Assembly (NCBI RefSeq): GCF_006937785.1
Contig: NZ_SJEE01000026.1
Span: forward strand, 1 to 32,000
Length of the DNA stretch: 32,000 bases
Source: Pseudanabaena sp. UWO311
GTDB lineage: Bacteria > Cyanobacteriota > Cyanobacteriia > Pseudanabaenales > Pseudanabaenaceae
Direction: 5' to 3'
Shown: piece by piece, positions 9,833-32,000 of the stretch
How the letters are laid out: the number at the start of each line of letters is the position of its first letter
Numbering within the stretch: position 1 is the stretch's first letter
Notes under the pieces: generated by a model
Told to the model about the DNA's origin: nothing
The model's database searches: none
What the model saw: the letters and a program-made list of their open reading frames with translations, nothing else
Translations under genes and position numbers: made by a program

Positions 9833-12159
9833 CGACAGATCCGAAAAATCAACAGTCGGCTTTACAAGGTAATGATGTGGCGCGCGACCTCACAATTGGT
9901 AACTTCGCACAGACAATCAACTACAACCAAATTATTCAAGAGGCAAAACTGACGGGGGGCAGCCTGATCAATTTGCCGCAGACTAATGTGACTTTTTTTG
10001 CGGGACGGGATGATGACCTGAAAAAAGTACATGAACTTTTACAGAAAAATCAGAGGGTGGCGGCAGTAGCTTTTGTGAAAGGGATGGGGGGTGTGGGGAA
10101 GTCAGAACTTGCCCTTCAATATTCGCTACGGCATTTTTTGACGGACTATAGCGGTGGAATCTGTTGGTTACGGGCAAATGAGGGGACTTTGCCGACCCAA
10201 TTACAGGATTTTGTACAGATACAGCTTGGGGAAATGATGCCCGATGGGTTAGATAGTGGCGAAAAGTTGGCGGGACATTGCTGGCGGCGGCTTTCGGATC
10301 GCTTGGAGGGGCAGATGTTGGTGGTGTTAGATGATGTGAAAAGTTCTGACGACGTGAATCCATTTTTGCCACCTCAGAATGGAAAGTTTTGGGTGTTGGC
10401 GACGACGCGGTTGGTATTGGGGAAATGGGATCAGCAATACACGTTAGATGTGTTGGTGTTGGCGGCGGCGGTGGATTTACTAAAGTCGTTTTTACCTGAA
10501 GCCGATCCGCGTCGGGGGAATGATGCGGAAATCGAGAGGCTTTGTGAGTGGTTGGGGCGGTTGCCTTTAGCGATCGAGTTGGTGGGGCGGTATTTGGCTT
10601 TGCCGAATCAGTTAGATACTGGTATTTCTGAGATCTTGCAACGCTTGCAAGGAGAATGTATGGTGCAGCTTTCGCAAATTACTGATGAAGAAAGGAAGTT
10701 ATTACCCAAAAATCTAAATGTGGCGGCTTCATTTTTCTTGAGTTGGCAAGAGTTGTCACCCTTGGCTCAACGTTTGGCTTGTATGCTGGGTTTGTTTGCC
10801 TTAGCGCCGATTCCTTGGGAACTAGCTGAAAATGCAGCACTCTTCAAGTTAGAAAATATACAAAGCAGCCGCCTGACTAAATTTATCAATGGTTTAGAAA
10901 ATATACAAAGCAGCCGCCTGACTAAATTTATCAATAAAACCTTGAAAAAAAATAATCCAAAAATAACAAAAGAAGACTTAAAAAAGGCTCGTGGTGAATT
11001 ATTGAATATAAATTTATTGCAAGTAATCTTTCTAGAGGATGTCCATTTTTATCATTTACATCAATTACTACGAGAGTATTTTAAATTTCAATACCAAAAA
11101 CATTCTGAATGGTCAAATATCAAGGATAAATTGATTTGCAGTTTAATTAAGTTTTGCAATAATTTATCTAATAATGAAAACTCATCAAACATTGCTACCA
11201 GTTATTTGAAACCACATTTAGGAATTCTTAAAGACAGAGAGAAAATATTTGATATCTGTAAATCTGATAATGAATTTATAGAAGATGTATTACGTGGATT
11301 TGGTAGCCTTAGAGATTACTATGAGAAGATAGGCTCATATTCTATTGCAGAGGATTGGGGAATTGAAAGCTTAGAGATCAGAAAAAAGTTTTATAGTGAG
11401 CAGCATTCTGATATTGCTCAAGATTGTAGCAAGCTTGCACATATCTACAATATGAATCAAAAATATAATGACGCAGTTGATTATTTTAAGCAAGCTATTC
11501 AAAAATACAAAAAGGCAGGTGAAATGCGTGAAGAGATAAAGAATGTGATCAAGGCTACAAGACTTAACTTTAAGTTAGACATATATTATGAGTTTGATTT
11601 GGAAAAGCACGAAAAAGAAAGTGAGAATTTATCTAATGATAAGCATGATTATGATCTGCGTTATGAAATCAAAGAATTAAGACAAGAAGAAGACAAACAA
11701 GCAAAACAAAAAGAAGAAAAGAGATTAAACTCTGTAAAAGAAGAAATTAAGATAGCTGTTGTTGGTTATCGTAATACTGGCAAAACAAGTTTTATCCGAA
11801 CATTAGTTAGAGACAAAGTTGGAATTGTAGAAGATAAAGCAGGAAGTACTATAGAGCCAGAAGAACACGAATGCTTGACTAATATAAAGCTAGTCGATTG
11901 TCCAGGGTTTATCAGTATTGATCAATACCAATCTTACAGAAGAGAAAAAGAGGAGAAATTACTCTCTAAAAGAGAAATATTAAGCAAAAACAAATGGACA
12001 GAAGAAACAATTGATCTATGCGAAAAAGCAATTAACAAAATAAAAATATCTGACATAGTTATTTATGTTGTCAGTTTAGAAAATCTTCACGATGAGGTAA
12101 CACAAAGAGAGATCGAGGAAATTAAAAATACAAACAAAAAAAATTATAGCTATTATTAA
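9829..12159 (+). CDS. STAND/NLR-like NTPase: NB-ARC module, winged-helix, TPR-like region, then the first half of a TRAFAC-type GTPase domain. The reading frame is interrupted at an A8 run.
   Basis: NB-ARC motifs: GMGGVGKSELA (10081-), LVVLDDV (10318-), WVLATTR, GRLPLAIELVG (about 10554-). GTPase motifs: G1 VGYRNTGKTS (11764-), G2-like GSTIEP, G3 DCPG (11896-11907). Confidence 0.85.
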   Translation: MTTDPKNQQSALQGNDVARDLTIGNFAQTINYNQIIQEAKLTGGSLINLPQTNVTFFAGRDDDLKKVHELLQKNQRVAAVAFVKGMGGVGKSELALQYSLRHFLTDYSGGICWLRANEGTLPTQLQDFVQIQLGEMMPDGLDSGEKLAGHCWRRLSDRLEGQMLVVLDDVKSSDDVNPFLPPQNGKFWVLATTRLVLGKWDQQYTLDVLVLAAAVDLLKSFLPEADPRRGNDAEIERLCEWLGRLPLAIELVGRYLALPNQLDTGISEILQRLQGECMVQLSQITDEERKLLPKNLNVAASFFLSWQELSPLAQRLACMLGLFALAPIPWELAENAALFKLENIQSSRLTKFINGLENIQSSRLTKFINKTLKKNNPKITKEDLKKARGELLNINLLQVIFLEDVHFYHLHQLLREYFKFQYQKHSEWSNIKDKLICSLIKFCNNLSNNENSSNIATSYLKPHLGILKDREKIFDICKSDNEFIEDVLRGFGSLRDYYEKIGSYSIAEDWGIESLEIRKKFYSEQHSDIAQDCSKLAHIYNMNQKYNDAVDYFKQAIQKYKKAGEMREEIKNVIKATRLNFKLDIYYEFDLEKHEKESENLSNDKHDYDLRYEIKELRQEEDKQAKQKEEKRLNSVKEEIKIAVVGYRNTGKTSFIRTLVRDKVGIVEDKAGSTIEPEEHECLTNIKLVDCPGFISIDQYQSYRREKEEKLLSKREILSKNKWTEETIDLCEKAINKIKISDIVIYVVSLENLHDEVTQREIEEIKNTNKKNYSYY
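10859..10945 (+). repeat. In-frame tandem duplication (45-nt period) at a compositional breakpoint
   Basis: A perfect 42-nt copy, ttagaaaatatacaaagcagccgcctgactaaatttatcaat, occurs at 10859-10900 and again at 10904-10945. It encodes LENIQSSRLTKFIN twice. Confidence 0.95.
12136..12143 (+). other. A8 homopolymer at the frame junction of the STAND gene (candidate slippage or indel site)
   Basis: The upstream frame stops at 12157-12159. The +1 frame is open from 12101 to 13036, and the two open frames overlap exactly across this A run. Confidence 0.8.
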
Positions 12160-17585: not shown

Positions 17586-18017
17586 TTAGGAATTCTTGAT
17601 CTTCTCAGCCTCAGCACGGATGCATTCTTCCTGTTCCCGAAGTTCAGGTGTAAATTCATCGCCAAAATCTGCCGCCTCAAAAAGCGGACGAACCTCAATC
17701 TCTGATTCTGATGGCATGGGATTGGGACACCGTTTGACCCATGCGATCGCCTCTTCCATTGACTGTACTTGCCAGAGCCAGTAGCCAGCCACTAGCTCCT
17801 TTGTCTCTGTAAATGGCCCATCGATGACGCTACGATTTGCTCCTGAAAATCTTATCCTCACTCCCTTTGAGCTAGGATGCAGACCCTCACCAGCCAGCAT
17901 AATCCCTGCTTTGACCAATTCTTCGTTGAATTTACCCATGTCAGTAAGCAGTTGTTCGCTGGGCATCACGCCAGCTTCTGAGTCTTTGGTCGCTTTGACC
18001 ATAACCATGACTTTCAT
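17586..18017 (-). CDS. YciI-like / DGPF-domain protein (long form)
   Basis: IDGPFTETKELVAGYWLWQVQSMEEAIAWVKRCP contains the DGPF motif. Confidence 0.8.
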   Translation of the reverse strand: MKVMVMVKATKDSEAGVMPSEQLLTDMGKFNEELVKAGIMLAGEGLHPSSKGVRIRFSGANRSVIDGPFTETKELVAGYWLWQVQSMEEAIAWVKRCPNPMPSESEIEVRPLFEAADFGDEFTPELREQEECIRAEAEKIKNS

Positions 18018-18077
18018 CTTTCAATCTCCTGTTTACTATTGCTATGTAGAGTTAAGAGAGTCTCAACCTTTGCTTTA

Positions 18078-18174
18078 TTCCAAATCAAGAAATGGCATAG
18101 CCATTTCTTGATTTGGAAAACCTTACTGGGTTTAGTTTTTAATTCACAAAAGTGTTGTCACACTTTCGTGAATT
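18078..18174. repeat. Two palindromic hairpins between DGPF genes
   Basis: ttccaaatcaagaaatggc/gccatttcttgatttggaa (18078-18118) and aattcacaaaagtgt/acactttcgtgaatt (18141-18174). The second is a copy of 16268-16301. Confidence 0.8.
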
Positions 18175-18287
18175 GGTATTACTATCTAGTCGAACAGACT
18201 GGCAGGAGATCGACAAGTTGAGCAAATTTTTCTAGAAAAGTTTTTTATAAGCTGATGGGCAATGTTGAGTGCGTATACCTCTAACAA

Positions 18288-18644
18288 CTATTCTGATGGC
18301 AGACCTGACAGCTCTACAATCGGGCGAATTTCAACAGTGCCTTTATATGCTGTGGGAATGCGTTCGGCGATCGCGATCGCTTCGTCGAGATTGGTCGCAT
18401 CGATCAAAAAGTAGCCGCCAAGTTGTTCCCGCGTTTCGGCAAAGGGACCATCGGTCACTAGTCGTTTTCCGTCACGAATCCTCACACTAGTTGCTTTGAC
18501 AACAGATTGCAGAGGTGAAGCGCCCAAGTATTGACCGTTCGCATTCAGATCTTGGGTGAGATGCACTGACTCCGTGTAGCATTGCTCTCTCTCATTTTCT
18601 GTCCATGCGTTTTCGTCACTGTAAATGAGCAACATATATTTCAT
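18288..18644 (-). CDS. YciI-like / DGPF-domain protein
   Basis: MKYMLLIY...VTDGPFAETREQLGGYFLIDATNLDEAIAIAERIP. Confidence 0.8.
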   Translation of the reverse strand: MKYMLLIYSDENAWTENEREQCYTESVHLTQDLNANGQYLGASPLQSVVKATSVRIRDGKRLVTDGPFAETREQLGGYFLIDATNLDEAIAIAERIPTAYKGTVEIRPIVELSGLPSE

Positions 18645-18746
18645 GATTGATCCTCTAGAGCTATGATTATTGCACGGTAATCATAGCTCAATCTATAGCA
18701 TGAGCTACATATATTTCAGGATTGATCGCGAAATATTTGTTGCGAG

Positions 18747-19226
18747 CTAATGATTACGCCGATAATGCGCTGTCATGAACTGCTGCCAGTTGCCATCATC
18801 ACCAAGAATCTGCGATCGCATGATCCGATGGTCATCACTAACAAACTCAATGATGTCCTGATACTTCGCGATCGCACTCTGGCTAAAGTTTAGTCCTTCT
18901 GTATCAAGTGTGAGAATCTTTTCCGACTCATCAAGAGCGCCATTGTAAATCCAGAGATGCGTCATCATTGAGCCGATAAAGTTTCCCACATACCGATTGA
19001 TTCTTGGGTCATAGCCCAACGTCATAATGGTCGTACCACGATTACCATCGGGCATTTCACTCTCACCTTCTGCCACGACCCAAAGTCCGCCAAGCGATCG
19101 GACGATTTCAGTTCCTTGATTCTTCGATGGTGGTTGGTCAGGTCCCATCATACATTCGACTTCCGAAATCCATTCGCCAACGAATTTATCGAGCCATTGA
19201 TGTTCTTTTTGAGGTTCAGCGTCCAT
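18747..19226 (-). CDS. DUF1579-like protein
   Basis: HQWLDKFVGEWISE...LGGLWVVAEGE...TLGYDP...YVGNFIGSMMTHLWIYNG fits the DUF1579 pattern as I remember it. Confidence 0.55.
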   Translation of the reverse strand: MDAEPQKEHQWLDKFVGEWISEVECMMGPDQPPSKNQGTEIVRSLGGLWVVAEGESEMPDGNRGTTIMTLGYDPRINRYVGNFIGSMMTHLWIYNGALDESEKILTLDTEGLNFSQSAIAKYQDIIEFVSDDHRIMRSQILGDDGNWQQFMTAHYRRNH

Positions 19227-19282
19227 ATTTTGCTCCTAAATAGTTAATCAAGATTAGTTAATCAAGTTTTTCAAGCCTTCAC

Positions 19283-19663
19283 TTACAGCTTTCTTGCGGC
19301 AACCATTGCGTTAATCTGCTCATCAGCGCCTCGAATCTCAAAGGCTCCGTTGCGAACTCCAGGGTGTTGGGACATTAACTGGATTGCATGGTTCAGATCT
19401 CTAGCTTCAAGAAAGAGGATACCGCCCAGATGTTCCTTCGTTTCGGCATAGGGACCATCGGTAATCGTAACCTTACCGTTCTGATACCTTAGCGTTGCGG
19501 CATTGCGGATACTTTGGAGAGCTTCGCCACCAACAAAGTGTCCGCCTCGACGTAGCTCGTCGTCATAGGCAAAACATTCCTCCATCAGCGCTGTGCGATC
19601 GCTTTCGGTCATCCAATCCCATTGCGCCTCATCCATATATCCAAGGCATATAAATTTCATCAT
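19283..19663 (-). CDS. YciI-like / DGPF-domain protein
   Basis: [35 protein letters not shown]. Confidence 0.8.
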
Positions 19664-19797
19664 TACCTCCAGAGTGTTATCTCAAATTAGTTGCCTTCAT
19701 CTAGTAGTCGTTCAGTAAAGCTGTAAATCGACAACACGGCAAAATATTTTTACAAAATATCTAGAGGCTTTGCTCCGCAACGCCTCTAGATATTTTG

Positions 19798-21048
19798 TTA
19801 GCTTAGTTCTTGGAGACGTTTTTCGAGAAACCGCCGCTCTGGTTCTTGCTTCACGAGTGCAAGGGCACGTTGGTAGGATTCTCTTGCCTGTGAATTTCTG
19901 CCCAAGCGCCGACAGAGATCGGCTTTTGCGGCATGGGCTAGGTGGTAATCAGCTAAATCACCATTTGATAAGATGCTATCGATCCGTTGCAATCCCGCTA
20001 GAAAGCCATCCCGCATCGCTACTGCCACGGCTCTATTTAGATCGACCACTGGTGATGGCTCTGCTCGCATGAGTAAGTCATACAAGGCGACAATCTGTGC
20101 CCAGTCCGTTGCCTCAGCACTTGTTGCTTCAGAATGTACTGCCGCGATCGCAGCCTGAATTGTGTATGAGCCGAACTGTGAAGATGATAGCGCTTGCCGC
20201 ACAAGTGCCCTGCCTTCCGCAATATATGCTTGGTTCCAGAGCGATCGATCCTGATCTTCTAGAAGGATTAGATCGCCTGTGAGAGATGTACGAGCAGTAC
20301 GTCGCGATTCTTGCATGAGCATCAGTGCTAACAATCCGATCGCTTCGGCATCTGGTAATAGTTCTACTACTAGTCGCCCCAAGCGAATTGCTTCTTCAGA
20401 GAGGTCGGTTCTTGTTAGAGATTCACCTGATGAAGCCGCATATCCTTCATTAAATACTAAATAAATCGTTTGCAGCATCGTATCTATGCGATCTGGCAAC
20501 TCTGCGATCTCTGGCACTTGATAGGGAATTCTTGCATCACGGATCTTTGCTTTAGCTCGGACAATTCGCTGAGCCAATGTAGGGGGCGTGATCAGAAAAG
20601 CGCTAGCAATTTCTTCAGTGGTTAGTCCGCAGACTTCTCTTAGTGTCAAGGCTACTTGTGCTTCTCGTGATAGAGATGGATGGCAGCAGGTGAAGATCAG
20701 GCGCAGGCGATCGTCTTCAACATCCTCATCCGCATCTTCTTTGCCAGAGGTATCACATGTGTCGAAATTTTGAGCGAGTTCTGCTAAGGATGCATCAAAA
20801 CGTGTGCGGCGACGAATGGTATCAATCGCTTTGAATCTCCCCACCGAGACAAGCCACGCTTTAGGATTGGCGGGTATGCCATCGCGGAGCCATTGCTTTA
20901 TAGCCACGGTAAAGGCTTCATGCATTGCCTCTTCTGCAAGGTCAAAATCTCCGATCAAGCGAATCAGGGTGGCGAAAATACTACGCGATTCTTTACGGTA
21001 GATATCATTAACGCGATCGCGGATCTGGCTGGCAATGTTCTCATTCAT
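19798..21048 (-). CDS. ECF sigma factor with a long C-terminal TPR-like extension (ECF42-type)
   Basis: Sigma-70 region 2 (FDLAEEAMHEAFTVAIKQW...NPKAWLVSVGRFKAIDTIRRR) and region 4 (LTLREVCGLTTEEIASAFLITPPTLAQRIVRAKAKI), plus a helical extension of about 200 aa. DGPF genes are adjacent. Confidence 0.8.
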   Translation of the reverse strand: MNENIASQIRDRVNDIYRKESRSIFATLIRLIGDFDLAEEAMHEAFTVAIKQWLRDGIPANPKAWLVSVGRFKAIDTIRRRTRFDASLAELAQNFDTCDTSGKEDADEDVEDDRLRLIFTCCHPSLSREAQVALTLREVCGLTTEEIASAFLITPPTLAQRIVRAKAKIRDARIPYQVPEIAELPDRIDTMLQTIYLVFNEGYAASSGESLTRTDLSEEAIRLGRLVVELLPDAEAIGLLALMLMQESRRTARTSLTGDLILLEDQDRSLWNQAYIAEGRALVRQALSSSQFGSYTIQAAIAAVHSEATSAEATDWAQIVALYDLLMRAEPSPVVDLNRAVAVAMRDGFLAGLQRIDSILSNGDLADYHLAHAAKADLCRRLGRNSQARESYQRALALVKQEPERRFLEKRLQELS

Positions 21049-21547
21049 GGAGCGTGATTGTAATTGCTGCTGATGCTAAAAGTGCTGATATAGTCCGAAT
21101 ATGGTTCCACATTGTCCAATTGGTAAGATAGTTAGCCCATAGACTCGCACCGTTAGCACTATCTGGATCGGCGATCGCTAGCGCATCATTTAGAGGCACA
21201 TTGCAGAGGATTGTCACACCCAATGTACCAACAAGATAGAACAGACTCCCGATGAGCAGGTAAACTGCATGGGGTTGATACCAATTTAACAGCGAAGATC
21301 CAGCCAGAAAGACACAAGCCGCAGCCGTTCCTAAAAATATACCTATAAATAACGGATTGATCGCCTTAATATTTATCGATTGCATAGCGGTAATGCCTTG
21401 CTTTGGTTGGAGTCGGGCAAGAGCATTCATTACAAAAGTTGAGAAAGCGAAGAAGACTCCAGCCATCAGCCCACAGCCCAATGCGGAGAAAAGCTTCAAG
21501 GCGAAATCATGTTGTTGAATGAATTGCAGCATTGTCCTACGTTCCAA
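21041..21547 (-). CDS. DUF1772 (anthrone-oxygenase-like) membrane protein
   Basis: 168-aa ORF with four hydrophobic segments. It overlaps the sigma factor start by 8 nt. Confidence 0.6.
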   Translation of the reverse strand: MERRTMLQFIQQHDFALKLFSALGCGLMAGVFFAFSTFVMNALARLQPKQGITAMQSINIKAINPLFIGIFLGTAAACVFLAGSSLLNWYQPHAVYLLIGSLFYLVGTLGVTILCNVPLNDALAIADPDSANGASLWANYLTNWTMWNHIRTISALLASAAITITLHE

Positions 21548-24219: not shown

Positions 24220-24314
24220 GATTATGAAGATTTGTGATTTTATTACAAATTCTTGGCGGATTCACCGCTTTTGGTAGACTAGATGGCGAATATATTAAAT
24301 TTTTTATTTTAATT

Positions 24315-24800
24315 ATGAGTGTAGTTAGTCAAGTTTTAGAAAGAGCAGACGAAGAACTCCGCTATCCCAGCATTTCTGAGCTGCAAAGTGTGCAAAACTT
24401 CCTTGCCACTGGTGCTCAAAGGGTGAGAATTGCCACAACCTTGGCAGAAAGCGAAGATAAAATCGTCAAAAAAGCCACTGAAGAACTATTTAGAATTCAT
24501 CCTGATTACATCTCCCCAGGTGGTAATGCCTATGGTCAAAAGCAACGCAGCCAATGTCTAAGAGATTTTACATGGTACATCCGTCTGACGACTTACGGTG
24601 TATTGGCAGGCGACAAAGACCCTATCGAAAAAATCGGTATCATTGGTGTCCGTGAAATGTACAGCTCTCTCGGTGTGCCTTTAGTCGGTATGGCTGATGC
24701 AGTTCGCTGCCTCAAGAATGCATCTTTAGCATTACTCAGCAAAGATGATGCTGCGACCACTGAGCCTTACTTTGATTACATCATTCAAGCCATGTCTTAG
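24315..24800 (+). CDS. apcD: Allophycocyanin alpha-B subunit (ApcD)
   Basis: [19 protein letters not shown]...[17 protein letters not shown]...[11 protein letters not shown] closely matches ApcD. The start is moved to the ATG at 24315 rather than the track's GTG at 24234. Confidence 0.85.
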
Positions 24801-25543: not shown

Positions 25544-25594
25544 AAACTAAAACCAAAAACGTAGTGCAAAGCACTACGTTTTTGGTTTTAGTTT
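25544..25594. terminator. Bidirectional hairpin terminator between msrB and tpsB
   Basis: 24-bp perfect stem aaactaaaaccaaaaacgtagtgc / gcactacgtttttggttttagttt. Confidence 0.75.
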
Positions 25595-25626
25595 CCATTT
25601 AAGAATTGCTTTCTATGGTTTCTAAA
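25595..25626. repeat. Collapsed (solo-ends) copy of the 2096-2227 element
   Basis: ccatttaagaatt (25595-25607) is identical to 2096-2108. atggtttctaaa (25615-25626) is identical to 2224-2235. The two are joined here by only 7 nt. Confidence 0.55.
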
Positions 25627-27355
25627 ATTGGTAACCGATGCTGAAATAGAGAGAAGACTCTTGCAGATTAGAACCGCGATCGCTAAGGTTAACAAATGGA
25701 AGTGTATAATCAAGCCGTAGGTTTAGCCGTTTAACTGGCTCGTATAGAATGCCCAATCCACCACCAGCTAAAAAGTTTTGACTAGGAAGCAAATTGAGGT
25801 TTCTAGAATTATTCCAAACTGTACCGAGATCGACAAAAGGAGCTAACTGGAGAACTGTACGACCATCCTCATTTCGCGCCACCACAAATCGACTCTCCAA
25901 TGACAAGCGAATCCCATTGTCACCCGATCGCGCATTTTGACGGAAGCCACGTAACGATTGACCACCACCAATCACAAACTGCTGTGATGGTAAAAGCGGA
26001 TCAGCCGAGAGTTGAGTATCTAAAGAACCGATCAAAATCGTATCAGTTCCCAGAACCTGAACTCGTTGAATTTGTCCCAACCAGCTTAAGAAAGCAGCAC
26101 TGGGACTGGTAACATAAGTTGCACCAAATAGCCCTGTACCGAGACTAAACTGCGATCGCAAAGACCAAACTCCTTCAGTATCACGACTAGTATAGTCTTG
26201 CCCAAACTTAAATATACTAGTACGGCTAGTTCCATCGGATTCTGGCCCAATTCCAAATGGCACAGCTAGATCGTTAAATAGGAAAGTCTGACCTCTTTGA
26301 TATTCATAACCTAGAGACAGTGCAAATTCTTCACGGAGAGAGCGAATTAAGGGTTGGCGATAAGTTGCAGCATAAACTTCACTATTGCCGCGAATATTGA
26401 AAGCATCAAATGGTGACTGGGTAATGCGATAGTTACTAGGTGCAAACCGTAGCGAGACAGTTCCATTCATCGGATTGACGGGAACACTAAAACCAAAATC
26501 ATATTGGTTAGAGCCGCCTGTTGTGGTTCTGGAATAATTGGCTGTAAATACATCTCCCAATCCAAAGAGATTGCGATAATTTAGCCCTACTCCCATGCGT
26601 TCAGACCCAACCGCAGGAGCAGAGAAGTTATCGAAACTGACAGAACCTGCAAATTGATTTGCTTCCACTACTGTAATTGTGAGAATACTCAAGCCAGCTT
26701 TGCTACCAGCTTTGAGATTAGCATCAAAACTTTTAAAATTGGGATCGGCACGTAAGAGTCGCAGTTGATCTTCGAGTTTATTGGTGTTGAGGGCAGTACC
26801 AATTCCTAGCTCAGTTCGCGATCGCACGTAGTCTGGATTAAGGGCATTAACGCCGATAATTTCGATTTTTTCGACTTTTCCTTCTAAAACTTGAATCTTG
26901 GCAATGCCATCAACGACGCTTTGAGGTGTGTATAGGGCTTGAGAGGTGACGTAGCCATTCTTGATGTAGAGTTGAGTAATGGCATTGGCAGCATCTGTTA
27001 GTTGTTCTTCGGTAACTGATTTACCTTCGAGTGGTTTGATGATGGGTTCGAGTTTAGTCGCATCGAAAACTGTGCTGCCAATAACTTCAATTTTTTTAAT
27101 GGGAATTGCTTGAGAAATTTCAGTTTGAGAAGTTTGAGAAGGAGAAGTTAAAGGAGAAGAAGCTATTTCTTTTGAAGGGATAGAACTAATTGATGGGGAA
27201 GATGTTAATGCTGTAGAAACTGGATTAGCACTAACCGATAACCTGCCATCTGTCGCTACCAATGCAAGGGTAGAAAGTCCTAATAATACTGAATGGATTC
27301 TTTCTATCTTGAACTTTAATTTCGTTGTTTTTACTTGCATGGTTACTATCTTCAC
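25622..27355 (-). CDS. TpsB outer-membrane transporter (ShlB/FhaC/HecB family, POTRA + beta-barrel)
   Basis: Signal peptide; POTRA pattern IKKIEVIGSTVF...EEQLTDAANAITQLYIKNGYVTSQAL...IQVLEGKVEKIEIIG; C-terminal beta-strand-rich barrel ending in ...YFSIGYQF. Confidence 0.85.
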   Translation of the reverse strand: MKIVTMQVKTTKLKFKIERIHSVLLGLSTLALVATDGRLSVSANPVSTALTSSPSISSIPSKEIASSPLTSPSQTSQTEISQAIPIKKIEVIGSTVFDATKLEPIIKPLEGKSVTEEQLTDAANAITQLYIKNGYVTSQALYTPQSVVDGIAKIQVLEGKVEKIEIIGVNALNPDYVRSRTELGIGTALNTNKLEDQLRLLRADPNFKSFDANLKAGSKAGLSILTITVVEANQFAGSVSFDNFSAPAVGSERMGVGLNYRNLFGLGDVFTANYSRTTTGGSNQYDFGFSVPVNPMNGTVSLRFAPSNYRITQSPFDAFNIRGNSEVYAATYRQPLIRSLREEFALSLGYEYQRGQTFLFNDLAVPFGIGPESDGTSRTSIFKFGQDYTSRDTEGVWSLRSQFSLGTGLFGATYVTSPSAAFLSWLGQIQRVQVLGTDTILIGSLDTQLSADPLLPSQQFVIGGGQSLRGFRQNARSGDNGIRLSLESRFVVARNEDGRTVLQLAPFVDLGTVWNNSRNLNLLPSQNFLAGGGLGILYEPVKRLNLRLDYTLPFVNLSDRGSNLQESSLYFSIGYQF

Positions 27356-27606
27356 ATTGATTCCTCACCGACAGCCAAAAAGTTAGTATATTTCAGTCTC
27401 AATTACGCGATGTGCAACTAAAAGTCTGAAAGCCCTGATTTCTCATACTGCACTGATAAGCAGTTTACACTTCAGGTAGCTCAAACAACCTAAGAGAAAT
27501 GGCTCAAAATATAGTTATCGCGTCTTAATTTGGATATTTTTGAAAAATCATAGTATAAAATTATCTTATTAAATCCCAGTCAAATTTTGGTGTGTGGTTG
27601 AAGATT

Positions 27607-30600
27607 ATGATGAAGCCAACCTGGGGAAAGTATTGGGCAATCACTGCCGCAATTATCGCAATGTCTCCAGCATTGCTGACAGCGCCCGTCACAGCACAAC
27701 CAATCACTGCTGCGCAAGATGGAATGAACACCGTCGTATTGCCAAATGGACAGCAGTTTGACATTACAGGCGGCACTCAAGCAGGAGCCAATCTCTTCCA
27801 TAGCTTTCAGCAATTTGGCTTAAGTCAAGGACAAATTGCCAACTTCCTGAGTCAACCAAACATTCAAAATATTCTCGGTCGCGTCGTTGGCGGTGATCCT
27901 TCCGTTATCAATGGCTTAATCCAACTCACAGGCGGAAATTCTAATCTCTACATCATGAATCCCGCAGGTGTGATTTTGGGAACCAATGCGAGCTTAAACG
28001 TTCCTGCTTCTTTTACTGCTACGACTGCCAATGGAATCCAAGTTGGGAATAGTTGGTTTGGGATGAATACGATCGCCAGCGATCTCAAGAATCTGACAGG
28101 AACTCCTAATGCTTTTGCTTTCACTAGTCCTTCTACTACCGTCCAAAATCAAACATCAGGAGTAATTGTCAATCAAGGCAATCTCAACGTTTCGGAAGGA
28201 AAAAGCATTACTCTCGTTGGTGGGATTGTGATCAATACAGGGACTATTGCATCTCCTAATGGCAATATCAATATTGTGGCAGCACCCAATGGCAAATATG
28301 TGCGGATCACGACTGAAGGTGGTGTGCTGAGTTTTGACTTGCCGATCGCAACTCAGCAGGAGTTGGGCAGTAAGACCCCGATCGCAGGGATTGATTTGCC
28401 GAAGTTGCTGGCTGGTTCGGGGATTGTTGCACCGACAAAGGCAGGGGAGGCGATCGCAACAGGTAATCTCACGGCCGCTAATATCAATGTCCTTGCTAAT
28501 CGCTATGACACGACTCAAGCTTCTCTGAATGCTGCGAATATCCAACAAGGTTGGAATTTTGTGTTTATTGACAGCACGGTTAAGGATTATCAAACATTAC
28601 TAAATGGCACTAATGGCGGTAGTAGTGTGACGGTGATTAATCCAGACCAATATGGGATTGCTCAGGTCACGGCAACTTTGGCTACGGTGACTGGTGCGAA
28701 TAGTTTGCATATTGTGTCTGAGGGTGATGTTGGTAATTTCTGGCTGGGTAAAGATTTTGTCAGTACTGAGAATATTGCTAGATATGCCAACGATCTTCAA
28801 GCATGGAAAACTTCTTTATCACCTGCGGCGAATATTTTGCTCTATGCCTGTAATTTGGCTAGTGGAGAGAATGGGGCGGCGCTTGTGCAAGCAGTGAAAC
28901 ACTATACGGGGCGTGAGGTAGCGGCTTCGACTGACTTGACGGGTAGCAGTAAGCTTGGTGGTAACTGGAATCTGGAATATCAGACTGGGAAACTGAATAC
29001 GGGTGTGGCGTTTAGTAACGATGCTCAGAATAGTTATAACGGTCGTCTGGCTACCTTTACGGCTACAAATATTAATGATGCTGGCGCAGGGTCTTTGAGA
29101 CAAGCGATTTTTGATGCTAATGTTTCACTAGGTGCTGATGACATTCGGTTTGACCCGAATGTGTTTAATGGTGCTCAAGCAGCGATTACTTTAGCAACAA
29201 CCTTGAATATTAATACCTTTACTGGAGGTCTAACCATCAGTGGTGCATTTGGAGCCAGCAATGTAACGGTGAGTGGCAATAATGCGGTGCGCGTGTTTAA
29301 TATCACGGGTATTGGCAATACCACGTTTGATAGTTTAAGGATTGTTAATGGAACAGTAGCAGGCAATGGTGGAGGGATAAATAACAGTGGCGGCGGAGCT
29401 GTGACGCTCACCAATAGCACTGTGTCGGGTAATACTGCTTCTAACTTTGGTGGTGGAATTTTTAGCAATGGATCAGTGACGCTCACCAATAGCACTGTGT
29501 CGGGTAATACGGCTGTGGTTTTCGGCGGTGGGATTTTCGGCAATGGATCAGTGACGCTCACCAATAGCACTGTGTCGGGTAATACGGCTGTGGTTTCAGG
29601 TGGTGGGATTTATAGCGATGGATCAGTGACGCTTACCAATAGCACTGTGTCGGGTAATACGGCTATTAATGATGCTGGTGGTGGGATTTTTGGCGTAGAT
29701 GTGACGCTCACCAATAGCACTGTGTCAGGTAATACGGGGGACGGTGGTGGTGCGATTGTAGGCTTTGGAGCTGTGACCCTAACCAACAGTACAGTGTCGG
29801 GTAATACAGCAACTTTTGATGGTGGTGGGATTTTTGGCTTGAATGGAGGCACAATTACCAACAGTACTATTACAAACAATACTGCCGATGCAGATAACAA
29901 TGGTTCAGGCAATGGTGGCGGTATTTTCCGCGAGATCAACGGCACATTTACAATTATAAATTCGATTATTGCAGGTAATTTTGACCAAGGATTGCAGGCT
30001 CCTGACTTGGGTAGTAATGTTGCAGGAGTAGGTTTTACTAATGGCGGCAATAACTTAATCGGAGCAAACGATGGCTTTGCCGCCACATTTGCACCTAGCG
30101 CCCTCATCGGCACGATCGCAGCACCAGTCAATCCCCAACTTGCGCCCCTTGCCAACAATGGCGGCCCAACTCTAACCCATGCCCTTTTACCCAACAGCCC
30201 AGCCCTAAATGCAGGGAATAACGCCAACGCCCCAGTAGGTAACGATCAACGCGGCTTACCCCGTATCTCTGGTATCGCGGTTGATATTGGTGCGTTTGAG
30301 GCTCAAGTTCCCTTAGTTGTAGCAACCCCAACTCCATCTCCAATTCCATCACCATCACCGATTTCAACTCCTAATATCGACCCATCTGTAGTGAGTCGGC
30401 AAAGCCCAGCGCAAAATATTTCCTTACCAACTGATGTGACTCCCATACTATCAACTGCGACTGACCAGACATTCTCTATCGAAAAATCTGCCTTAGCCAC
30501 ATCTCAACATCAGCAAGCCGATAAATTCCTCCAAACTGGTAACATAACAGAAGCAATAGTCAGTCTTGAATCTAGCTACATTTCAGAGCTAGAGGCTTAT

Positions 30601-32000
30601 ACTGGCATACCTTTAGCATCCACAACGGGTTTAACTGGCACAACTTCAACTACTCCAACTGGCACAACTTCAACTACTCCAACTGGCACAACTTCAACTA
30701 CTCCAACTGGCACAACTACTACTACTCCAACTGGCACAACTACTACTACTCCAACTGGCACAACTTCAACTATTTCAACTGGCACAACTTCAACTACTTC
30801 AACTGGCACAACTTCAACTACTCCAACTGGCACAACTACTAATACTTCAACTGACATAACTTCAACTACTCTAACTGGCGCAACTACTAAAGCCAAAGAG
30901 ATTATTGCAAATATTATAAACGAACTAAAAAGAACCTCAAAAATCACGAATAGCCCTACTGCGGTAGTTTATCCCGTGATTTTTGATGACCGTATTGAGA
31001 TTTTGGTTATATCTCCAAGTGGAAAGATAGTCCAAAAAACCAACGCAGATATCTCTAAACAGGTTCTATTAAAAGTAATTTCAGACTTTCGAGCCAACCT
31101 GCGGGATGCCAGTTCACAAGATTATCTGGGTGAAGCTCAAAAGCTAAATGATTGGATTGTCAAGCCAATTGAAACAACGCTGCAATCAGAAAAAATAGGT
31201 ACTATTGTTTTTGTGATGGATGGAGACTTACGAGTAATTCCAACAGCGACTCTCCATGATGGCGAAAAGTTTCTGGTTGAGAAATATGCGATCGCCAATG
31301 TACCCAGCTTTAGCTTAGCGAGATTAGAAGAACGAGATCGTAAAAACAGTCGTGTACTGGCGATGGGCTTAACCCAATCTGTGCAAGGGCTTTCAGCATT
31401 ACCTGCGGTAAATACGGAGATTAACAATATTGTCAGCAAAGATAATGCTCAATCATTATTAACAGGTAGTTCTTTTATTAACGAAGACTTTACCCTGATG
31501 AATATGCAAGCACAGAGAAAACAACAAGATTACGGCATCATTCATCTAGCTACACACGCTCAGTTTTTGAGCAATAAAGCTGACGGAGCATTCATTCAAT
31601 TTTTTGACGATCGCCTTAATATCAGACAAATTCCTAAACTCAATTTTGATAAACCTCAAGTCGAAATGTTGACATTGAGCGCTTGTGAGACCGCAGTGGG
31701 CAAAAATCTTGGTCTTGGAGGACTATCTGTAACTTCAGGTGTTCGTAGTGTTTTAGCTTCTCTCTGGCCAGTCAGTGATGCTGGCACTGTTCCTTTAATA
31801 TTGAGCTTTTACAGTCGCTTTTCCGATGCCCCAAGTAAAGCGGTTGCCTTACAAAAAGCCCAGTTATCAATTATAAGAGGCGAAGTTAAAATCGAAAACA
31901 ACAAAATCATTGGTATTCCTGGCTTACCAATAATTTCTCTACCTTCAGATAGCCCAAAAGATGTAAACCACCCATATTTTTGGTCTTCTTTTGTACTCAT
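27607..32000 (+). CDS. TpsA-type secreted giant protein (3' partial): TPS/haemagglutination domain, DUF4347-like, Pmp-like beta-helix repeats, choice-of-anchor-Q-like, Pro- and Thr-rich linkers, C-terminal CHAT (caspase-like) protease domain
   Basis: Hand translation of frame 1 from ATG 27607 to 32000 shows no stop. The ORF is absent from the track because it has no stop in the window. Signal peptide MMKPTWGKYWAITAAIIAMSPALLTAPVTAQP. TPS motifs ILGRVVGGDPSVINGLI and LYIMNPAGVILG. DUF4347-like FIDSTV...LHIVSEGDVGNFWLG...LLYACNLASGENG...GGNWNLEY. CHAT motifs IIHLATHA (His 31555-31557), LTLSACET (Cys 31684-31686) and HPYFWSSFVL at the window edge. Confidence 0.9.
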   Translation, partial: MMKPTWGKYWAITAAIIAMSPALLTAPVTAQPITAAQDGMNTVVLPNGQQFDITGGTQAGANLFHSFQQFGLSQGQIANFLSQPNIQNILGRVVGGDPSVINGLIQLTGGNSNLYIMNPAGVILGTNASLNVPASFTATTANGIQVGNSWFGMNTIASDLKNLTGTPNAFAFTSPSTTVQNQTSGVIVNQGNLNVSEGKSITLVGGIVINTGTIASPNGNINIVAAPNGKYVRITTEGGVLSFDLPIATQQELGSKTPIAGIDLPKLLAGSGIVAPTKAGEAIATGNLTAANINVLANRYDTTQASLNAANIQQGWNFVFIDSTVKDYQTLLNGTNGGSSVTVINPDQYGIAQVTATLATVTGANSLHIVSEGDVGNFWLGKDFVSTENIARYANDLQAWKTSLSPAANILLYACNLASGENGAALVQAVKHYTGREVAASTDLTGSSKLGGNWNLEYQTGKLNTGVAFSNDAQNSYNGRLATFTATNINDAGAGSLRQAIFDANVSLGADDIRFDPNVFNGAQAAITLATTLNINTFTGGLTISGAFGASNVTVSGNNAVRVFNITGIGNTTFDSLRIVNGTVAGNGGGINNSGGGAVTLTNSTVSGNTASNFGGGIFSNGSVTLTNSTVSGNTAVVFGGGIFGNGSVTLTNSTVSGNTAVVSGGGIYSDGSVTLTNSTVSGNTAINDAGGGIFGVDVTLTNSTVSGNTGDGGGAIVGFGAVTLTNSTVSGNTATFDGGGIFGLNGGTITNSTITNNTADADNNGSGNGGGIFREINGTFTIINSIIAGNFDQGLQAPDLGSNVAGVGFTNGGNNLIGANDGFAATFAPSALIGTIAAPVNPQLAPLANNGGPTLTHALLPNSPALNAGNNANAPVGNDQRGLPRISGIAVDIGAFEAQVPLVVATPTPSPIPSPSPISTPNIDPSVVSRQSPAQNISLPTDVTPILSTATDQTFSIEKSALATSQHQQADKFLQTGNITEAIVSLESSYISELEAYTGIPLASTTGLTGTTSTTPTGTTSTTPTGTTSTTPTGTTTTTPTGTTTTTPTGTTSTISTGTTSTTSTGTTSTTPTGTTTNTSTDITSTTLTGATTKAKEIIANIINELKRTSKITNSPTAVVYPVIFDDRIEILVISPSGKIVQKTNADISKQVLLKVISDFRANLRDASSQDYLGEAQKLNDWIVKPIETTLQSEKIGTIVFVMDGDLRVIPTATLHDGEKFLVEKYAIANVPSFSLARLEERDRKNSRVLAMGLTQSVQGLSALPAVNTEINNIVSKDNAQSLLTGSSFINEDFTLMNMQAQRKQQDYGIIHLATHAQFLSNKADGAFIQFFDDRLNIRQIPKLNFDKPQVEMLTLSACETAVGKNLGLGGLSVTSGVRSVLASLWPVSDAGTVPLILSFYSRFSDAPSKAVALQKAQLSIIRGEVKIENNKIIGIPGLPIISLPSDSPKDVNHPYFWSSFVL
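29401..29847 (+). repeat. 75-nt (25-aa) tandem coding repeats, Pmp-like beta-helix rungs
   Basis: The core gtgacgctcaccaatagcactgtgtcgggtaatac recurs at 29401, 29476, 29551, 29626 and 29701, with a diverged copy at 29773. It encodes VTLTNSTVSGNTA-x5-GGGIF. Confidence 0.9.
30634..30873 (+). repeat. 24-nt tandem repeat, about 10 units, encoding a TGTTSTTP Thr-rich linker
   Basis: The unit actggcacaacttcaactactcca is repeated head-to-tail with few substitutions. The antisense 'VVEVVPVG' ORF at 30597-30947 is its shadow. Confidence 0.95.

What the first reader, a model, noticed from the sequence alone, without database searches (positions are those of the whole stretch)
25622..32000. Two-partner secretion pair whose exported cargo ends in a CHAT (caspase-like) protease; the gene is missing from the supplied ORF track
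Seen in the sequence:
- An uninterrupted reading frame of 1464 codons or more (27607-32000) lies divergent from a ShlB/FhaC-type TpsB gene.
- The cargo has a signal peptide and TPS domain (NPAGVILG, GGDPSVINGLI), a DUF4347-like module, at least 6 beta-helix rungs, a choice-of-anchor-Q-like segment (LAPLANNGGPTLTHALLPNSPALNAG...DQRG...DIGAFE), and Pro-rich and Thr-rich spacers.
- It ends in a CHAT domain with an intact His/Cys dyad (HLATHA, LSACET) and the family's terminal HPYFWSSFVL motif.

Established knowledge: TpsA proteins are exported adhesins or toxins. CHAT domains are caspase-fold proteases best known from intracellular conflict systems (for example TPR-CHAT/Craspase).

Inference: a caspase-like protease displayed on or released from the cell surface through TPS has no characterised function. 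It could be an interbacterial or anti-grazer toxin, a self-processing module, or a kin-recognition/programmed-cell-death factor in a filamentous cyanobacterium. The divergent gene orientation is atypical, since tpsBA genes normally form a co-oriented operon.
Basis: partly seen in the sequence, partly recalled or inferred. Interest (0 to 1): 0.72.

Follow-up and report, generated by a model that had tools for sequence, protein, structure and literature searches.

The report
Two-partner-secreted protein ending in CHAT protease
A cyanobacterial outer-membrane export pair whose large surface protein ends in an intact caspase-like (CHAT) protease belongs to a very common but unstudied cyanobacterial family, and the protease looks more like a built-in anchoring or processing module than a toxin.

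Summary
A TpsB gene (25622-27355, minus strand) lies 251 bp from a divergent open frame (27607 to the window end, 1464 codons). Orthologues show only about 5 codons are missing.

Profiles confirm TPS, DUF4347, choice-of-anchor-Q and CHAT. An AlphaFold model of the C-terminal module matches Csx29, separase and DdvA. The His/Cys dyad is invariant.

The architecture is not rare. The CHAT module belongs to a large, almost purely cyanobacterial clade of exported CHAT proteins: 4,870 representative clusters at E<=1e-30. Of the best 150, 87 are TPS fusions, and most of the rest are Sec-signal-only forms or fragments.

Close paralogues share the same passenger but end in an HMW1/HxuA-type Cys-loop periplasmic anchor. 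The CHAT cassette occupies that position. No immunity gene or VENN motif was found.

DUF4347 is itself a caspase/CPD-like fold, with the catalytic His replaced by an invariant Glu.

Best reading: an envelope-side anchoring/processing protease. This mechanism is inferred, not shown. No published characterisation was found. Interest is moderate.

The parts
25547..25591 (.). Perfect 20-bp-stem hairpin between the convergent msrB and tpsB genes, likely a bidirectional terminator. It lies just outside the conserved two-gene module.
   Evidence: Terminator-like scan. The module homology boundary with L001 is at 25615.
25622..27355 (-). tpsB: Omp85-superfamily ShlB/FhaC-type outer-membrane transporter, 577 aa, GTG start.
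   Evidence: PF03865 ShlB 1.7e-35, PF08479 POTRA_2 1.7e-21, PF01103 Omp85 3.4e-14. L6 'LRGF' at aa 468 and terminal ...GYQF. A 577-aa orthologue sits at the same position in L001.
27356..27606 (.). 251-bp AT-rich divergent intergenic region, presumed to hold the promoters for both genes.
   Evidence: Sequence. Only one weak promoter-like match, not above chance. Conserved with L001 as part of the module.
27607..32000 (+). tpsA cargo gene, 1464 codons in the window, cut about 5 codons before its stop. The full protein is about 1469 aa.
   Evidence: Translation. Orthologues P0001, P0003 and P0004 end ...FVL(I/V)GSWL*.
27607..27696 (+). Sec-type signal peptide (aa 1-30, ...LLTAPVTAQ|PITAA).
   Evidence: Read from the sequence. 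No dedicated predictor was available.
27712..28323 (+). TPS secretion domain (aa 36-239) with NSNL (aa 111) and NPAGV (aa 118) motifs.
   Evidence: PF05860 1.9e-35. TIGR01901 4.7e-21. Motifs.
28561..29046 (+). DUF4347 (aa 319-480): a clan-CD (caspase/CPD-like) fold. Glu372 (codon 28720-28722) sits at the catalytic-His position. Cys415 (codon 28849-28851) is retained.
   Evidence: PF14252 6.4e-53. AF2 model pTM 0.87. Foldseek: Tce1 9qpe_G at 9.7e-05, then caspases, legumain and Csx29 at about 1e-3. Residue alignment to Tce1. E and C are invariant in 21 sequences. Tce1's dyad is described in PMC13323088.
29077..30126 (+). Parallel beta-helix passenger (aa 491-840), with six perfect VTLTNSTVSGN rungs plus degenerate ones. 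Rung number varies between orthologues.
   Evidence: 75-nt tandem repeat at 29401-29839. Rung count. PF13229 hit in paralogue P0012. Segment identity only 69-93% among orthologues.
30130..30306 (+). Choice-of-anchor Q domain (aa 842-900), the last element shared with the CHAT-less paralogues.
   Evidence: NF041518 4.6e-24. Shared with paralogues at 63-89% identity.
30313..30384 (+). Pro-rich linker (ATPTPSPIPSPSPISTP). This is where the protein diverges from the Cys-loop paralogues.
   Evidence: Sequence. Comparison with P0007, P0008 and P0012.
30529..30621 (+). Helical segment (aa 975-1005) that belongs to the CHAT cassette. It is conserved in stand-alone exported CHAT proteins and in P0074/P0063.
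   Evidence: AF2: helix at segment residues 6-25, pLDDT 84-92. Conserved in P0074, P0129 and P0165.
30631..30891 (+). Thr-rich disordered loop (TGTTSTTP repeats). Copy number varies among orthologues.
   Evidence: 24-nt repeat x 10.5 copies at 30633-30885. pLDDT about 30. Shorter in P0001, P0003 and P0004.
30850..32000 (+). CHAT fold core (aa 1082-1464; Pfam CHAT aa 1177-1464 = nt 31135-31998). His1313, His1317 (codon 31555-31557) and Cys1360 (codon 31684-31686) are present.
   Evidence: PF12770 1.1e-55. AF2 pTM 0.82. Foldseek: Csx29 at 6e-13, plus separase, DdvA and SAVED-CHAT. Dyad invariant in 48 aligned sequences and in 58/58 TPS-CHAT homologues.

Best explanation
**What is shown.** This is a type Vb (two-partner) secretion module of a Pseudanabaena-like cyanobacterium. 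A FhaC/ShlB-type TpsB and a divergently transcribed TpsA of about 1469 aa travel together as a discrete two-gene unit.

The cargo reads, in order:
- Sec signal
- TPS domain
- DUF4347, a caspase/CPD-like fold whose catalytic His is an invariant Glu
- parallel beta-helix
- choice-of-anchor-Q domain
- Pro-rich linker
- C-terminal cassette: helical segment, disordered Thr-rich loop, CHAT protease with an intact His/Cys dyad.

The cassette belongs to a large, almost exclusively cyanobacterial clade of exported CHAT proteins. These occur either as Sec-signal-only proteins of about 500 aa or fused to the end of diverse TpsA passengers.

**What is inferred.** The passenger is threaded outward through TpsB from N- to C-terminus. 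The CHAT cassette is made last and is a globular domain of about 40 kDa. It occupies the position that sister paralogues fill with an HMW1/HxuA-type disulfide-loop periplasmic anchor. I propose that it folds on the periplasmic side and tethers the passenger through the Pro-rich linker. It would then act as a built-in processing protease, cleaving its own or a neighbour's linker to mature or shed the surface protein, or cleaving other envelope proteins. It would not be a CDI-type toxin delivered to other cells.
For: **Identity of the pair**
- Profile hits for TpsB and all cargo domains.
- TpsB L6 and beta-signal motifs.
- DNA homology with contig L001 starts 7 bp beyond the tpsB stop while the left flanks differ.
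- The same divergent pairing occurs in L001 and in six Nostocales loci.

**Active CHAT**
- AF2 pTM 0.82.
- Foldseek hits Csx29 at 6e-13 over about 370 columns, plus separase, DdvA and SAVED-CHAT.
- The dyad is invariant in 48/48 aligned sequences and 58/58 TPS-CHAT homologues.

**Exported clade**
- The nearest relatives carry N-terminal signal peptides; 57 of 64 have a hydrophobic N-terminus.
- The CHAT core has a median of 1 Cys (n=80). The whole cargo has only 2 Cys.
- At least 590 genomic loci match the clade.
- 4,870 representative clusters at E<=1e-30. Of the best 150, 87 have a TPS domain.

**Anchor-position argument**
- 52 of 58 CHAT-less paralogues share the passenger at 73-89% identity. 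They end in C-X13-20-C.
- This is the feature that locks HMW1/HxuA in the TpsB pore from the periplasm (PMC5422565).
- The same cassette sits on a different passenger in P0074 and P0063 at 71-72% identity.

**Precedents for envelope-side self-processing**
- Periplasmic TPR-CHAT of DdvA, with proposed cleavage of its own flexible linker (PMC11506125).
- The FhaB prodomain remains intracellular (Noel et al. 2012, cited in PMC5422565).

**Against a toxin**
- gcpE lies convergent 124 bp downstream in L001.
- No recurrent downstream family.
- No pretoxin VENN motif.
Against: - The topology is not demonstrated. Many TpsA proteins export their C-terminal domain as the functional end (CdiA-CT, ShlA).
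- TPS passengers normally fold outside the cell, so the CHAT domain could equally be surface-exposed or released.
- The Sec-only relatives might travel beyond the periplasm.
- Signal peptides were judged by eye and by a crude hydrophobicity rule, not by a predictor.
- No cleavage site is known.
- The anchor analogy rests on positional equivalence, not homology.
- The gene downstream of this particular copy is outside the window.
- Only about 40% of TPS-CHAT genes have an adjacent TpsB, so partner assignment elsewhere is unknown.
- A secreted DUF928 protein recurs near some relatives and may point to a different, trans-acting function.
Confidence: 0.45

Rival explanations
1. Surface-displayed or released extracellular protease. 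The whole cargo, including CHAT, passes through TpsB. The beta-helix/CoA-Q stalk presents the protease at its distal end, where it cleaves external substrates such as matrix or sheath proteins, other cells' surface proteins, or prey/grazer proteins. This would resemble gingipain-like clan-CD surface proteases.
For: - The C-terminal domains of many TpsA proteins are the exported functional end (review PMC5422565).
- The dyad is strictly conserved.
- Long flexible Pro- and Thr-rich linkers suit a tethered enzyme.
- The CHAT core holds a single Cys, compatible with an oxidising exterior.
- There is a large paralogue expansion with very long stalks, up to 4,144 aa.
- No immunity gene would be needed.
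Against: - The cassette replaces a periplasmic Cys-loop anchor in paralogues.
- The nearest relatives are Sec-only proteins with no evident outer-membrane export route.
- No CHAT or hemagglutinin-like proteins are mentioned in the cyanobacterial exoproteome paper checked. This is weak evidence, since the species differ.
Confidence: 0.3
2. Polymorphic-toxin or CDI-like effector, or a kin-recognition/programmed-cell-death factor. The CHAT cassette is delivered into neighbouring cells and cleaves an essential target.
For: - The C-terminal cassette is swapped among different TpsA passengers.
- Zhang et al. list C-terminal caspase-like domains as possible toxins, though not for T5SS (PMC3482391).
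- Many paralogues occur per genome.
Against: - No immunity-like ORF downstream in the orthologous contig.
- No recurrent neighbour across 85 loci.
- No VENN/pretoxin motif and no FHA-1/FHA-2 repeat hits.
- The cassette is one conserved family, not a set of diverse toxins. The alternative terminus is an anchor, not another toxin.
- Stand-alone signal-peptide homologues exist in the same genomes without immunity partners.
Confidence: 0.1
3. Non-catalytic role. The CHAT module serves only as a folded plug or a protein-binding domain (a pseudo-protease), or as an intramolecular chaperone like the FhaB prodomain.
For: - CHAT domains rest in inactive conformations until triggered (DdvA, Craspase).
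- The DUF4347 in the same protein has lost its catalytic His.
Against: His1313, His1317 and Cys1360 are invariant in every complete homologue examined. This argues for retained catalysis.
Confidence: 0.08

Closest known systems
HMW1/HMW1B and HxuA/HxuB (Haemophilus TPS systems with a periplasmic C-terminal anchor)
   Same: A TpsB plus a beta-helical TpsA adhesin-like cargo. Sister paralogues of this cargo end in the same kind of terminal Cys...Cys loop (52/58). In HMW1/HxuA that loop stays in the periplasm and locks the cargo in the pore (PMC5422565).
   Different: The window protein has no terminal Cys pair. That position holds a helical + CHAT protease cassette of about 490 aa. Periplasmic retention is inferred, not shown.
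FhaB/FhaC of Bordetella
   Same: A large TpsA whose C-terminal region is not part of the mature surface protein. The prodomain stays intracellular and is removed by proteolysis (Noel et al. 2012, cited in PMC5422565).
   Different: FhaB is processed by separate proteases. Here the C-terminal region is itself a protease domain. The two C-terminal regions share no sequence similarity.
CdiA/CdiB/CdiI contact-dependent inhibition systems
   Same: TPS export, with a modular C-terminus that is exchanged between passengers.
   Different: No VENN/pretoxin motif. No immunity gene downstream in the orthologue. The cassette is one conserved protease family rather than a set of diverse toxins. Zhang et al. 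do not list T5SS among the export routes for Tox-Caspase.
DdvA periplasmic TPR-CHAT anti-sigma factor (Myxococcus; PDB 8rot)
   Same: An extracytoplasmic CHAT domain with a His/Cys dyad, joined to the rest of the protein by a flexible linker that is the proposed self-cleavage site (PMC11506125). Foldseek E=5e-07.
   Different: DdvA is an inner-membrane signalling protein with a long TPR array. Here the helical part is minimal and the module ends an outer-membrane-secreted cargo.
Csx29 (TPR-CHAT of Craspase), separase and SAVED-CHAT
   Same: Same fold. The best structural matches are Csx29 at 6e-13 over about 370 columns, and separase at 3.5e-09. The dyad arrangement is the same.
   Different: Those are cytoplasmic and activated by RNA, securin or nucleotides. 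Sequence identity is only 10-14%. None is linked to a secretion system.
Tce1 (PA0256, DUF4347) and the TcdB/MARTX cysteine protease domains
   Same: The cargo's DUF4347 matches Pfam DUF4347. Its model's best structural hit is Tce1, followed by caspases and legumain. Tce1 is described as CPD-like with dyad His186/Cys240.
   Different: In the TPS-linked DUF4347 clade the His is an invariant Glu. It is internal to a TpsA rather than a T6SS effector.
HetF (Anabaena CHAT protease)
   Same: The only experimentally characterised cyanobacterial CHAT protease found in the literature search (PMC9457339, PMC8406250).
   Different: HetF acts on the divisome-linked substrate PatU3 inside the cell. It has no TPS domain or signal peptide.

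Membership tests
Two-partner secretion (type Vb) system | TpsB: Omp85-superfamily barrel of the ShlB/FhaC type with POTRA domain(s) | tested here: met
   PF03865 1.7e-35, PF08479 POTRA_2 1.7e-21, PF01103 3.4e-14. Only one POTRA was resolved by profile.
Two-partner secretion (type Vb) system | Conserved L6-loop (V/I/L)RG(Y/F) motif and a C-terminal aromatic residue in TpsB | tested here: met
   LRGF at aa 468; the protein ends ...SIGYQF.
Two-partner secretion (type Vb) system | TpsA: N-terminal signal peptide followed by a TPS domain with NPNL/NPNGI-type motifs | tested here: met
   PF05860 1.9e-35. TIGR01901 4.7e-21. NSNL at aa 111 and NPAGV at aa 118. The signal peptide was read from the sequence.
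Two-partner secretion (type Vb) system | tpsA and tpsB genetically linked | tested here: met
   Separated by 251 bp, divergent. The pair is conserved as a unit in L001 and is divergent in six Nostocales loci.
Two-partner secretion (type Vb) system | TpsB-dependent export of the cargo | not testable with these tools
   Requires experiment.
CHAT (clan CD, caspase-hemoglobinase fold) peptidases | Match to the CHAT profile over its full length | tested here: met
   PF12770 1.1e-55, profile positions 4-286 of 289, cut by the window end.
CHAT (clan CD, caspase-hemoglobinase fold) peptidases | Separase/Csx29-type three-dimensional fold | tested here: met
   AF2 pTM 0.82. Foldseek: Csx29 at 6e-13, separase at 3.5e-09, DdvA at 5e-07.
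CHAT (clan CD, caspase-hemoglobinase fold) peptidases | Catalytic His and Cys | tested here: met
   His1313/His1317 and Cys1360 are invariant in alignment A1 and in 58/58 homologues. Naming His1317 as the catalytic one is an inference from the caspase 'H-G/A' motif. Dyad geometry could not be measured because no coordinates were available.
CHAT (clan CD, caspase-hemoglobinase fold) peptidases | Peptidase activity | not testable with these tools
   Requires biochemistry.
CDI / polymorphic toxin systems (CdiA-CT/CdiI) | Cognate immunity gene immediately downstream of the toxin-encoding end | tested here: not met
   Not visible in the window. In orthologous contig L001 the next gene is a convergent gcpE 124 bp away. 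No recurrent downstream family in 85 loci.
CDI / polymorphic toxin systems (CdiA-CT/CdiI) | Pretoxin (VENN) demarcation and FHA-type repeats before a variable toxin | tested here: not met
   No PT-VENN or Fil_haemagg Pfam hit. The only [VIL][ED]NN motif lies inside CHAT at aa 1429.
HMW1/HxuA-type anchored TpsA | C-terminal disulfide-bonded loop (two Cys in the last ~20-45 residues) | tested here: not met
   The window cargo has only Cys415 and Cys1360. The feature is present in 52 of 58 CHAT-less paralogues.
DUF4347 / CPD-like clan-CD protease domain (Tce1-like) | Profile match and fold | tested here: met
   PF14252 6.4e-53. The Foldseek top hit is Tce1, followed by caspases and legumain, but at modest E of about 1e-3 to 1e-4 and TM 0.35-0.52. 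hhalign against CHAT is not significant.
DUF4347 / CPD-like clan-CD protease domain (Tce1-like) | His/Cys catalytic dyad | tested here: not met
   The His position is Glu372, invariant in 21 TPS-linked sequences. Cys415 is retained.

The most novel reading that the evidence does not exclude
The CHAT cassette is a caspase-like effector that the TPS system delivers to other cells: filament mates, competitors or grazers. It would work without a cognate immunity protein, for example as a kin-recognition or programmed-cell-death trigger in a multicellular cyanobacterium. The Sec-only paralogues and neighbouring DUF928 proteins would form part of the same extracellular proteolytic signalling network.
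Probability: 0.1. Interest if true: 0.85.

Novelty: new variant of a known kind. Interest (0 to 1): 0.5.

Why it matters
TPS systems have been studied almost entirely in proteobacterial pathogens. Their cargoes there are adhesins, cytolysins or CDI toxins.

The data here indicate that cyanobacteria have a major, unstudied class of TPS cargo ending in a catalytically intact CHAT protease. That protease cassette alternates with the classical periplasmic Cys-loop anchor.

If the cassette proves to be a self-processing tether, it would be a new way to control surface retention versus shedding of large adhesin-like proteins. Such proteins matter for filament adhesion, mats, biofilms and blooms. It would also extend CHAT/caspase-fold biology from cytoplasmic defence and cell-cycle roles to the cell envelope.

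The DUF4347 result gives a fold and a testable residue pair (Glu372/Cys415) for a widespread domain of unknown function.

For this particular window, however, the locus is one ordinary member of a family with thousands of database relatives.

Tried and rejected
- **Exact look-up of the window TpsB to extend the contig:** not on record. The orthologue P0003 was used instead.
- **Literature:** searches for CHAT with two-partner secretion, hemagglutinin, TpsA, secreted, or filamentous haemagglutinin gave no relevant paper. The EXCRETE exoproteome paper mentions neither CHAT nor haemagglutinin.
- **Sequence search of PDB with the CHAT profile:** no hit at E<=0.01. Only the fold search worked.
- **hhalign of DUF4347 against CHAT:** not significant, probability 0.6%. 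No direct homology claim is made. The caspase-like assignment rests on the modest Foldseek series and the Tce1 alignment.
- **Search for a conserved immunity or partner gene in 85 loci:** the recurrent 'families' were generic signalling proteins, antisense ORFs or synteny among close relatives. The only specific recurrent neighbour is DUF928 (7 loci), which is absent from the window.
- **TpsB detection:** relaxing to E<=10 found no additional TpsB genes, so orphan TPS-CHAT genes are real within the flanks available.
- **Cys content versus cytoplasmic TPR-CHAT:** not a clean control, because many of those TPR-CHAT relatives also carry signal peptides.
- **Promoter scan of the divergent intergenic region:** nothing above chance.
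- **Pfam call with nine long proteins:** exceeded the size limit.
- **Model coordinates:** His-Cys distance and docking of the helical segment could not be measured.

Full report
**1. Observation**

The frame 27607-32000 (+) is open for 1464 codons. It is missing from the mechanical ORF list only because ORFs that run off the window end are not reported.

Orthologous proteins from metagenomes (P0001 95%, P0003 90%, P0004 88% identity) end ...HPYFWSSFVL(I/V)GSWL*. The window's last two bases, AT, fit the Ile codon. So about five codons are missing.

The divergent ORF 25622-27355 (-) is a ShlB/FhaC-type TpsB. It hits ShlB at 1.7e-35 and POTRA_2 at 1.7e-21. It has an L6 LRGF motif and a terminal ...GYQF.

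Cargo domains are confirmed by profiles:
- TPS, 1.9e-35
- DUF4347, 6.4e-53
- CHAT, 1.1e-55, profile positions 4-286 of 289
- adhes_NPXG, 4.7e-21
- choice-of-anchor Q, 4.6e-24

There are six perfect beta-helix rungs, encoded by a 75-nt tandem repeat. The Thr-rich spacer is a 24-nt repeat of 10.5 copies.

**2. The pair is a unit**

DNA similarity to the 46-kb orthologous contig L001 begins at window position 25615, 7 bp beyond the tpsB stop. It runs to the window end at 93-97% identity.

The left flanks are unrelated. The window has msrB and a perfect 20-bp hairpin. L001 has a GT4 gene and transposase fragments.

In L001 the cargo gene is followed after 124 bp by a convergent gcpE/ispG, a housekeeping gene. 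The rest of the window is ordinary cyanobacterial chromosome: NDH-1/ChpY, a STAND NTPase, an ECF sigma/YCII cluster, TgpA, an ApcA-like gene and MsrB.

**3. The CHAT module is real and looks active**

An AlphaFold2 model of aa 975-1464, built on a 48-sequence alignment, has pTM 0.82. Most of the core is above pLDDT 90, and the Thr-rich loop is disordered.

Foldseek against the PDB gives:
- Csx29/TPR-CHAT at E=6e-13 over about 370 columns
- separase at 3.5e-09
- the periplasmic anti-sigma factor DdvA at 5e-07
- SAVED-CHAT

A sequence-only PDB search found nothing.

His1313, His1317 and Cys1360 are invariant in the 48-sequence alignment. They are also invariant in 58 of 58 complete TPS-CHAT homologues retrieved without reference to those motifs.

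**4. The architecture is common, not exceptional**

The whole-protein search returned 2,903 relatives. Of the top 120, 62 carry a CHAT region (58 of them complete), in Pseudanabaena, Spirulina, Coleofasciculus and others. Several genomes hold multiple paralogues.

A scan of one genome per species found at least 590 stretches encoding relatives of the cassette, almost all cyanobacterial. In the 85 loci held (80 from this scan plus 5 fetched earlier), 50 ORFs combine TPS and CHAT, at lengths of 783-3,205 aa. The rest are mostly proteins of 455-543 aa.

An exhaustive HMMER search of 1.84 billion representatives gave these counts:

| E-value threshold | Representative clusters |
|---|---|
| <=1e-3 | 35,858 |
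| <=1e-30 | 4,870 |

Of the best 150, 99 are at least 1000 aa, and 87 have a recognisable TPS domain. CHAT always ends 5-6 residues from the C-terminus.

No paper in the searchable library links CHAT with TPS. The Zhang/Aravind survey lists Tox-Caspase for T2SS, T6SS, T7SS and PVC, but not T5SS. So the kind is abundant in databases but uncharacterised.

**5. An exported CHAT clade**

The nearest relatives of the cassette outside the TPS fusions are proteins of about 470-650 aa. They begin with classical signal peptides. They share the helical segment, the CHAT core and the HPYFWSSF.L.GNWL terminus. Examples sit in unrelated chromosomal contexts with no TpsB nearby.

By a crude test, 57 of 64 have a hydrophobic N-terminus. 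Their CHAT core contains a median of one cysteine, the catalytic one. The window cargo has only two cysteines in 1464 residues.

A periplasmic TPR-CHAT is documented structurally in DdvA. Its authors propose that it clips its own flexible linker (PMC11506125). The premise that CHAT is an intracellular module is therefore too narrow.

**6. The cassette alternates with a periplasmic anchor**

Segment-wise BLAST shows that about 45 Pseudanabaena/Tumidithrix paralogues share TPS, DUF4347, beta-helix and CoA-Q with the window protein at 73-89% identity (TPS segment). They diverge right after ...DIGAFE.

Of the 58 CHAT-less homologues, 52 end in a conserved C-X13-20-C tail (VLCLDPSLANAQTTSIPTCKK). 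These two cysteines are virtually their only ones apart from the DUF4347 Cys.

This is the hallmark of the HMW1/HxuA subfamily. There, a small disulfide-bonded loop stays in the periplasm and locks the TpsA in its TpsB pore (Guerin et al. 2017, PMC5422565).

Conversely, P0074 and P0063 carry the same helical+CHAT cassette at 71-72% identity on a different passenger that lacks DUF4347. The cassette is therefore a mobile C-terminal module. It occupies the anchor position.

**7. Mechanism (inferred)**

TPS cargoes are threaded through TpsB from N- to C-terminus. A C-terminal domain of about 40 kDa that folds in the periplasm cannot pass the pore.

My preferred reading is that the CHAT cassette acts as a periplasm-side plug or tether, joined to the passenger by the Pro-rich linker. 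Its protease activity would mature or release the cargo in cis or trans, or would act on other envelope proteins.

Supporting points:
- positional equivalence with the Cys-loop anchor
- the Sec-only relatives
- the DdvA and FhaB-prodomain precedents
- the strict conservation of the dyad
- the absence of any immunity partner or VENN motif

By gene-fusion logic, the fusion also suggests that the stand-alone exported CHAT proteases work on TPS cargoes.

I put this at about 0.45. The identity of the system itself I put above 0.9. The main rival, at about 0.3, is that the whole protein is exported and CHAT is a surface or extracellular protease. A CDI-like toxin or death effector is about 0.1. A purely structural role is below 0.1.

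**8. DUF4347**

A model of aa 301-494 has pTM 0.87. Its best structural match is Tce1 (9qpe_G, E=9.7e-05), the only solved DUF4347 protein. After that come a consistent but modest series of hits at E about 1e-3: caspase-3/-7/-6/-1, CED-3, legumain and Csx29.

Tce1 is described as a TcdB-CPD-like putative cysteine protease with dyad His186/Cys240 (PMC13323088).

HMMER aligns Tce1 ATHGTAGQLWLG with the cargo's VSEGDVGNFWLG, and Tce1 LYGCDFA with LYACNLA. So the Cys (C415) is kept, but the His is Glu372. Both residues are invariant in 21 TPS-linked DUF4347 sequences. A direct profile comparison with CHAT is not significant.

The cargo thus probably holds two caspase-fold modules. The N-proximal one is a His-to-Glu variant of unknown activity.

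**9. Gene order**

The divergent arrangement is conserved in L001 and in six Nostocales loci, with gaps of 122-583 bp. Other Pseudanabaenales have tpsA followed by tpsB.

Of the TPS-CHAT genes with at least 5 kb on both sides, only 8 of 18 have any TpsB nearby, even at E<=10. The orientation is a lineage feature rather than an anomaly.

**10. Verdict**

The locus is an ordinary member of a very large cyanobacterial family. That family is, however, an experimentally unexplored variant of two-partner secretion.

Novelty: new variant of a known kind. Interest: 0.5.

Noticed in passing
L043, L045, L048, L061, L062, L064, L065, L075, L079, L082 (e.g. L062:6137-11059): In Nostocales and Coleofasciculus relatives the TPS...CHAT ORF carries an in-frame N-terminal GT2 glycosyltransferase domain of about 230 aa (PF00535, 1.4e-34). 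It is followed by a signal/anchor-like hydrophobic segment and then TPS at about aa 280. This is an odd cytoplasmic-enzyme/secreted-cargo fusion. It recalls the HMW1C glycosyltransferase partner of HMW1. The window's beta-helix rungs each carry an NST sequon (18 sequons in aa 491-840).
   Followed up: partly
L007:3754-4518, L048:13404-14282, L054:14591-15406, L063:4421-5137, L070:1299-2093, L075:18629-19447, L082:18565-19383: A secreted DUF928 protein (PF06051, E from 1e-49 to 1e-61) recurs within 10 kb of exported-CHAT genes in 7 loci of different genera. In L070 it ends 6 bp before the TPS-CHAT start. It is a possible partner or substrate. It is absent from this window.
   Followed up: partly
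L043:12236-16895 (- strand): A second TpsB gene lies 11 bp upstream of, and co-oriented with, a 929-aa TPR-CHAT protein that has no recognisable TPS domain. This suggests a further link between TpsB transporters and CHAT proteins.
   Followed up: partly
window 30633-30885 and 29401-29839: Two in-frame tandem repeats: 24 nt x 10.5 copies for the Thr-rich loop, and 75 nt x about 6 copies for the beta-helix rungs. Copy numbers differ among 88-95%-identical orthologues (P0001, P0003, P0004), so both stalk length and linker length are hypervariable.
   Followed up: partly
window 25547-25591: A perfect 20-bp-stem hairpin between the convergent msrB and tpsB genes. It is probably a bidirectional terminator and lies just outside the conserved module boundary at 25615.
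   Followed up: no
window 9401-12159: A DUF29 gene followed by a 776-aa NB-ARC + TPR + MMR_HSR1 GTPase protein. This is a STAND-type NTPase of the kind found in conflict systems of multicellular bacteria.
   Followed up: no
window 17586-21547 (- strand): A cluster of an ECF-type sigma factor with DUF6596, three YCII-domain genes, DUF1579 and an anthrone-oxygenase-like gene.
   Followed up: no
window 24234-24800: An allophycocyanin-alpha-like gene (Phycobilisome, 4e-59). It scores below the ApcA equivalog cut-off (200 against 270 bits), so it is a divergent ApcA paralogue. A phycobilisome gene also lies near the orthologous module in L001.
   Followed up: no
L006:1490-5830: A TPS...CHAT gene split into two adjacent ORFs (1163 aa plus 281 aa) by a frame break. 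This is either a pseudogene or an assembly error in that MAG.
   Followed up: no
P0224, P0227, P0235, P0236 (TPR-CHAT relatives, one annotated as from Desulfobacterales): Several classical multi-TPR CHAT proteins outside the cyanobacterial clade also begin with signal-peptide-like N-termini. Exported TPR-CHAT proteins may be more widespread than the literature implies.
   Followed up: no
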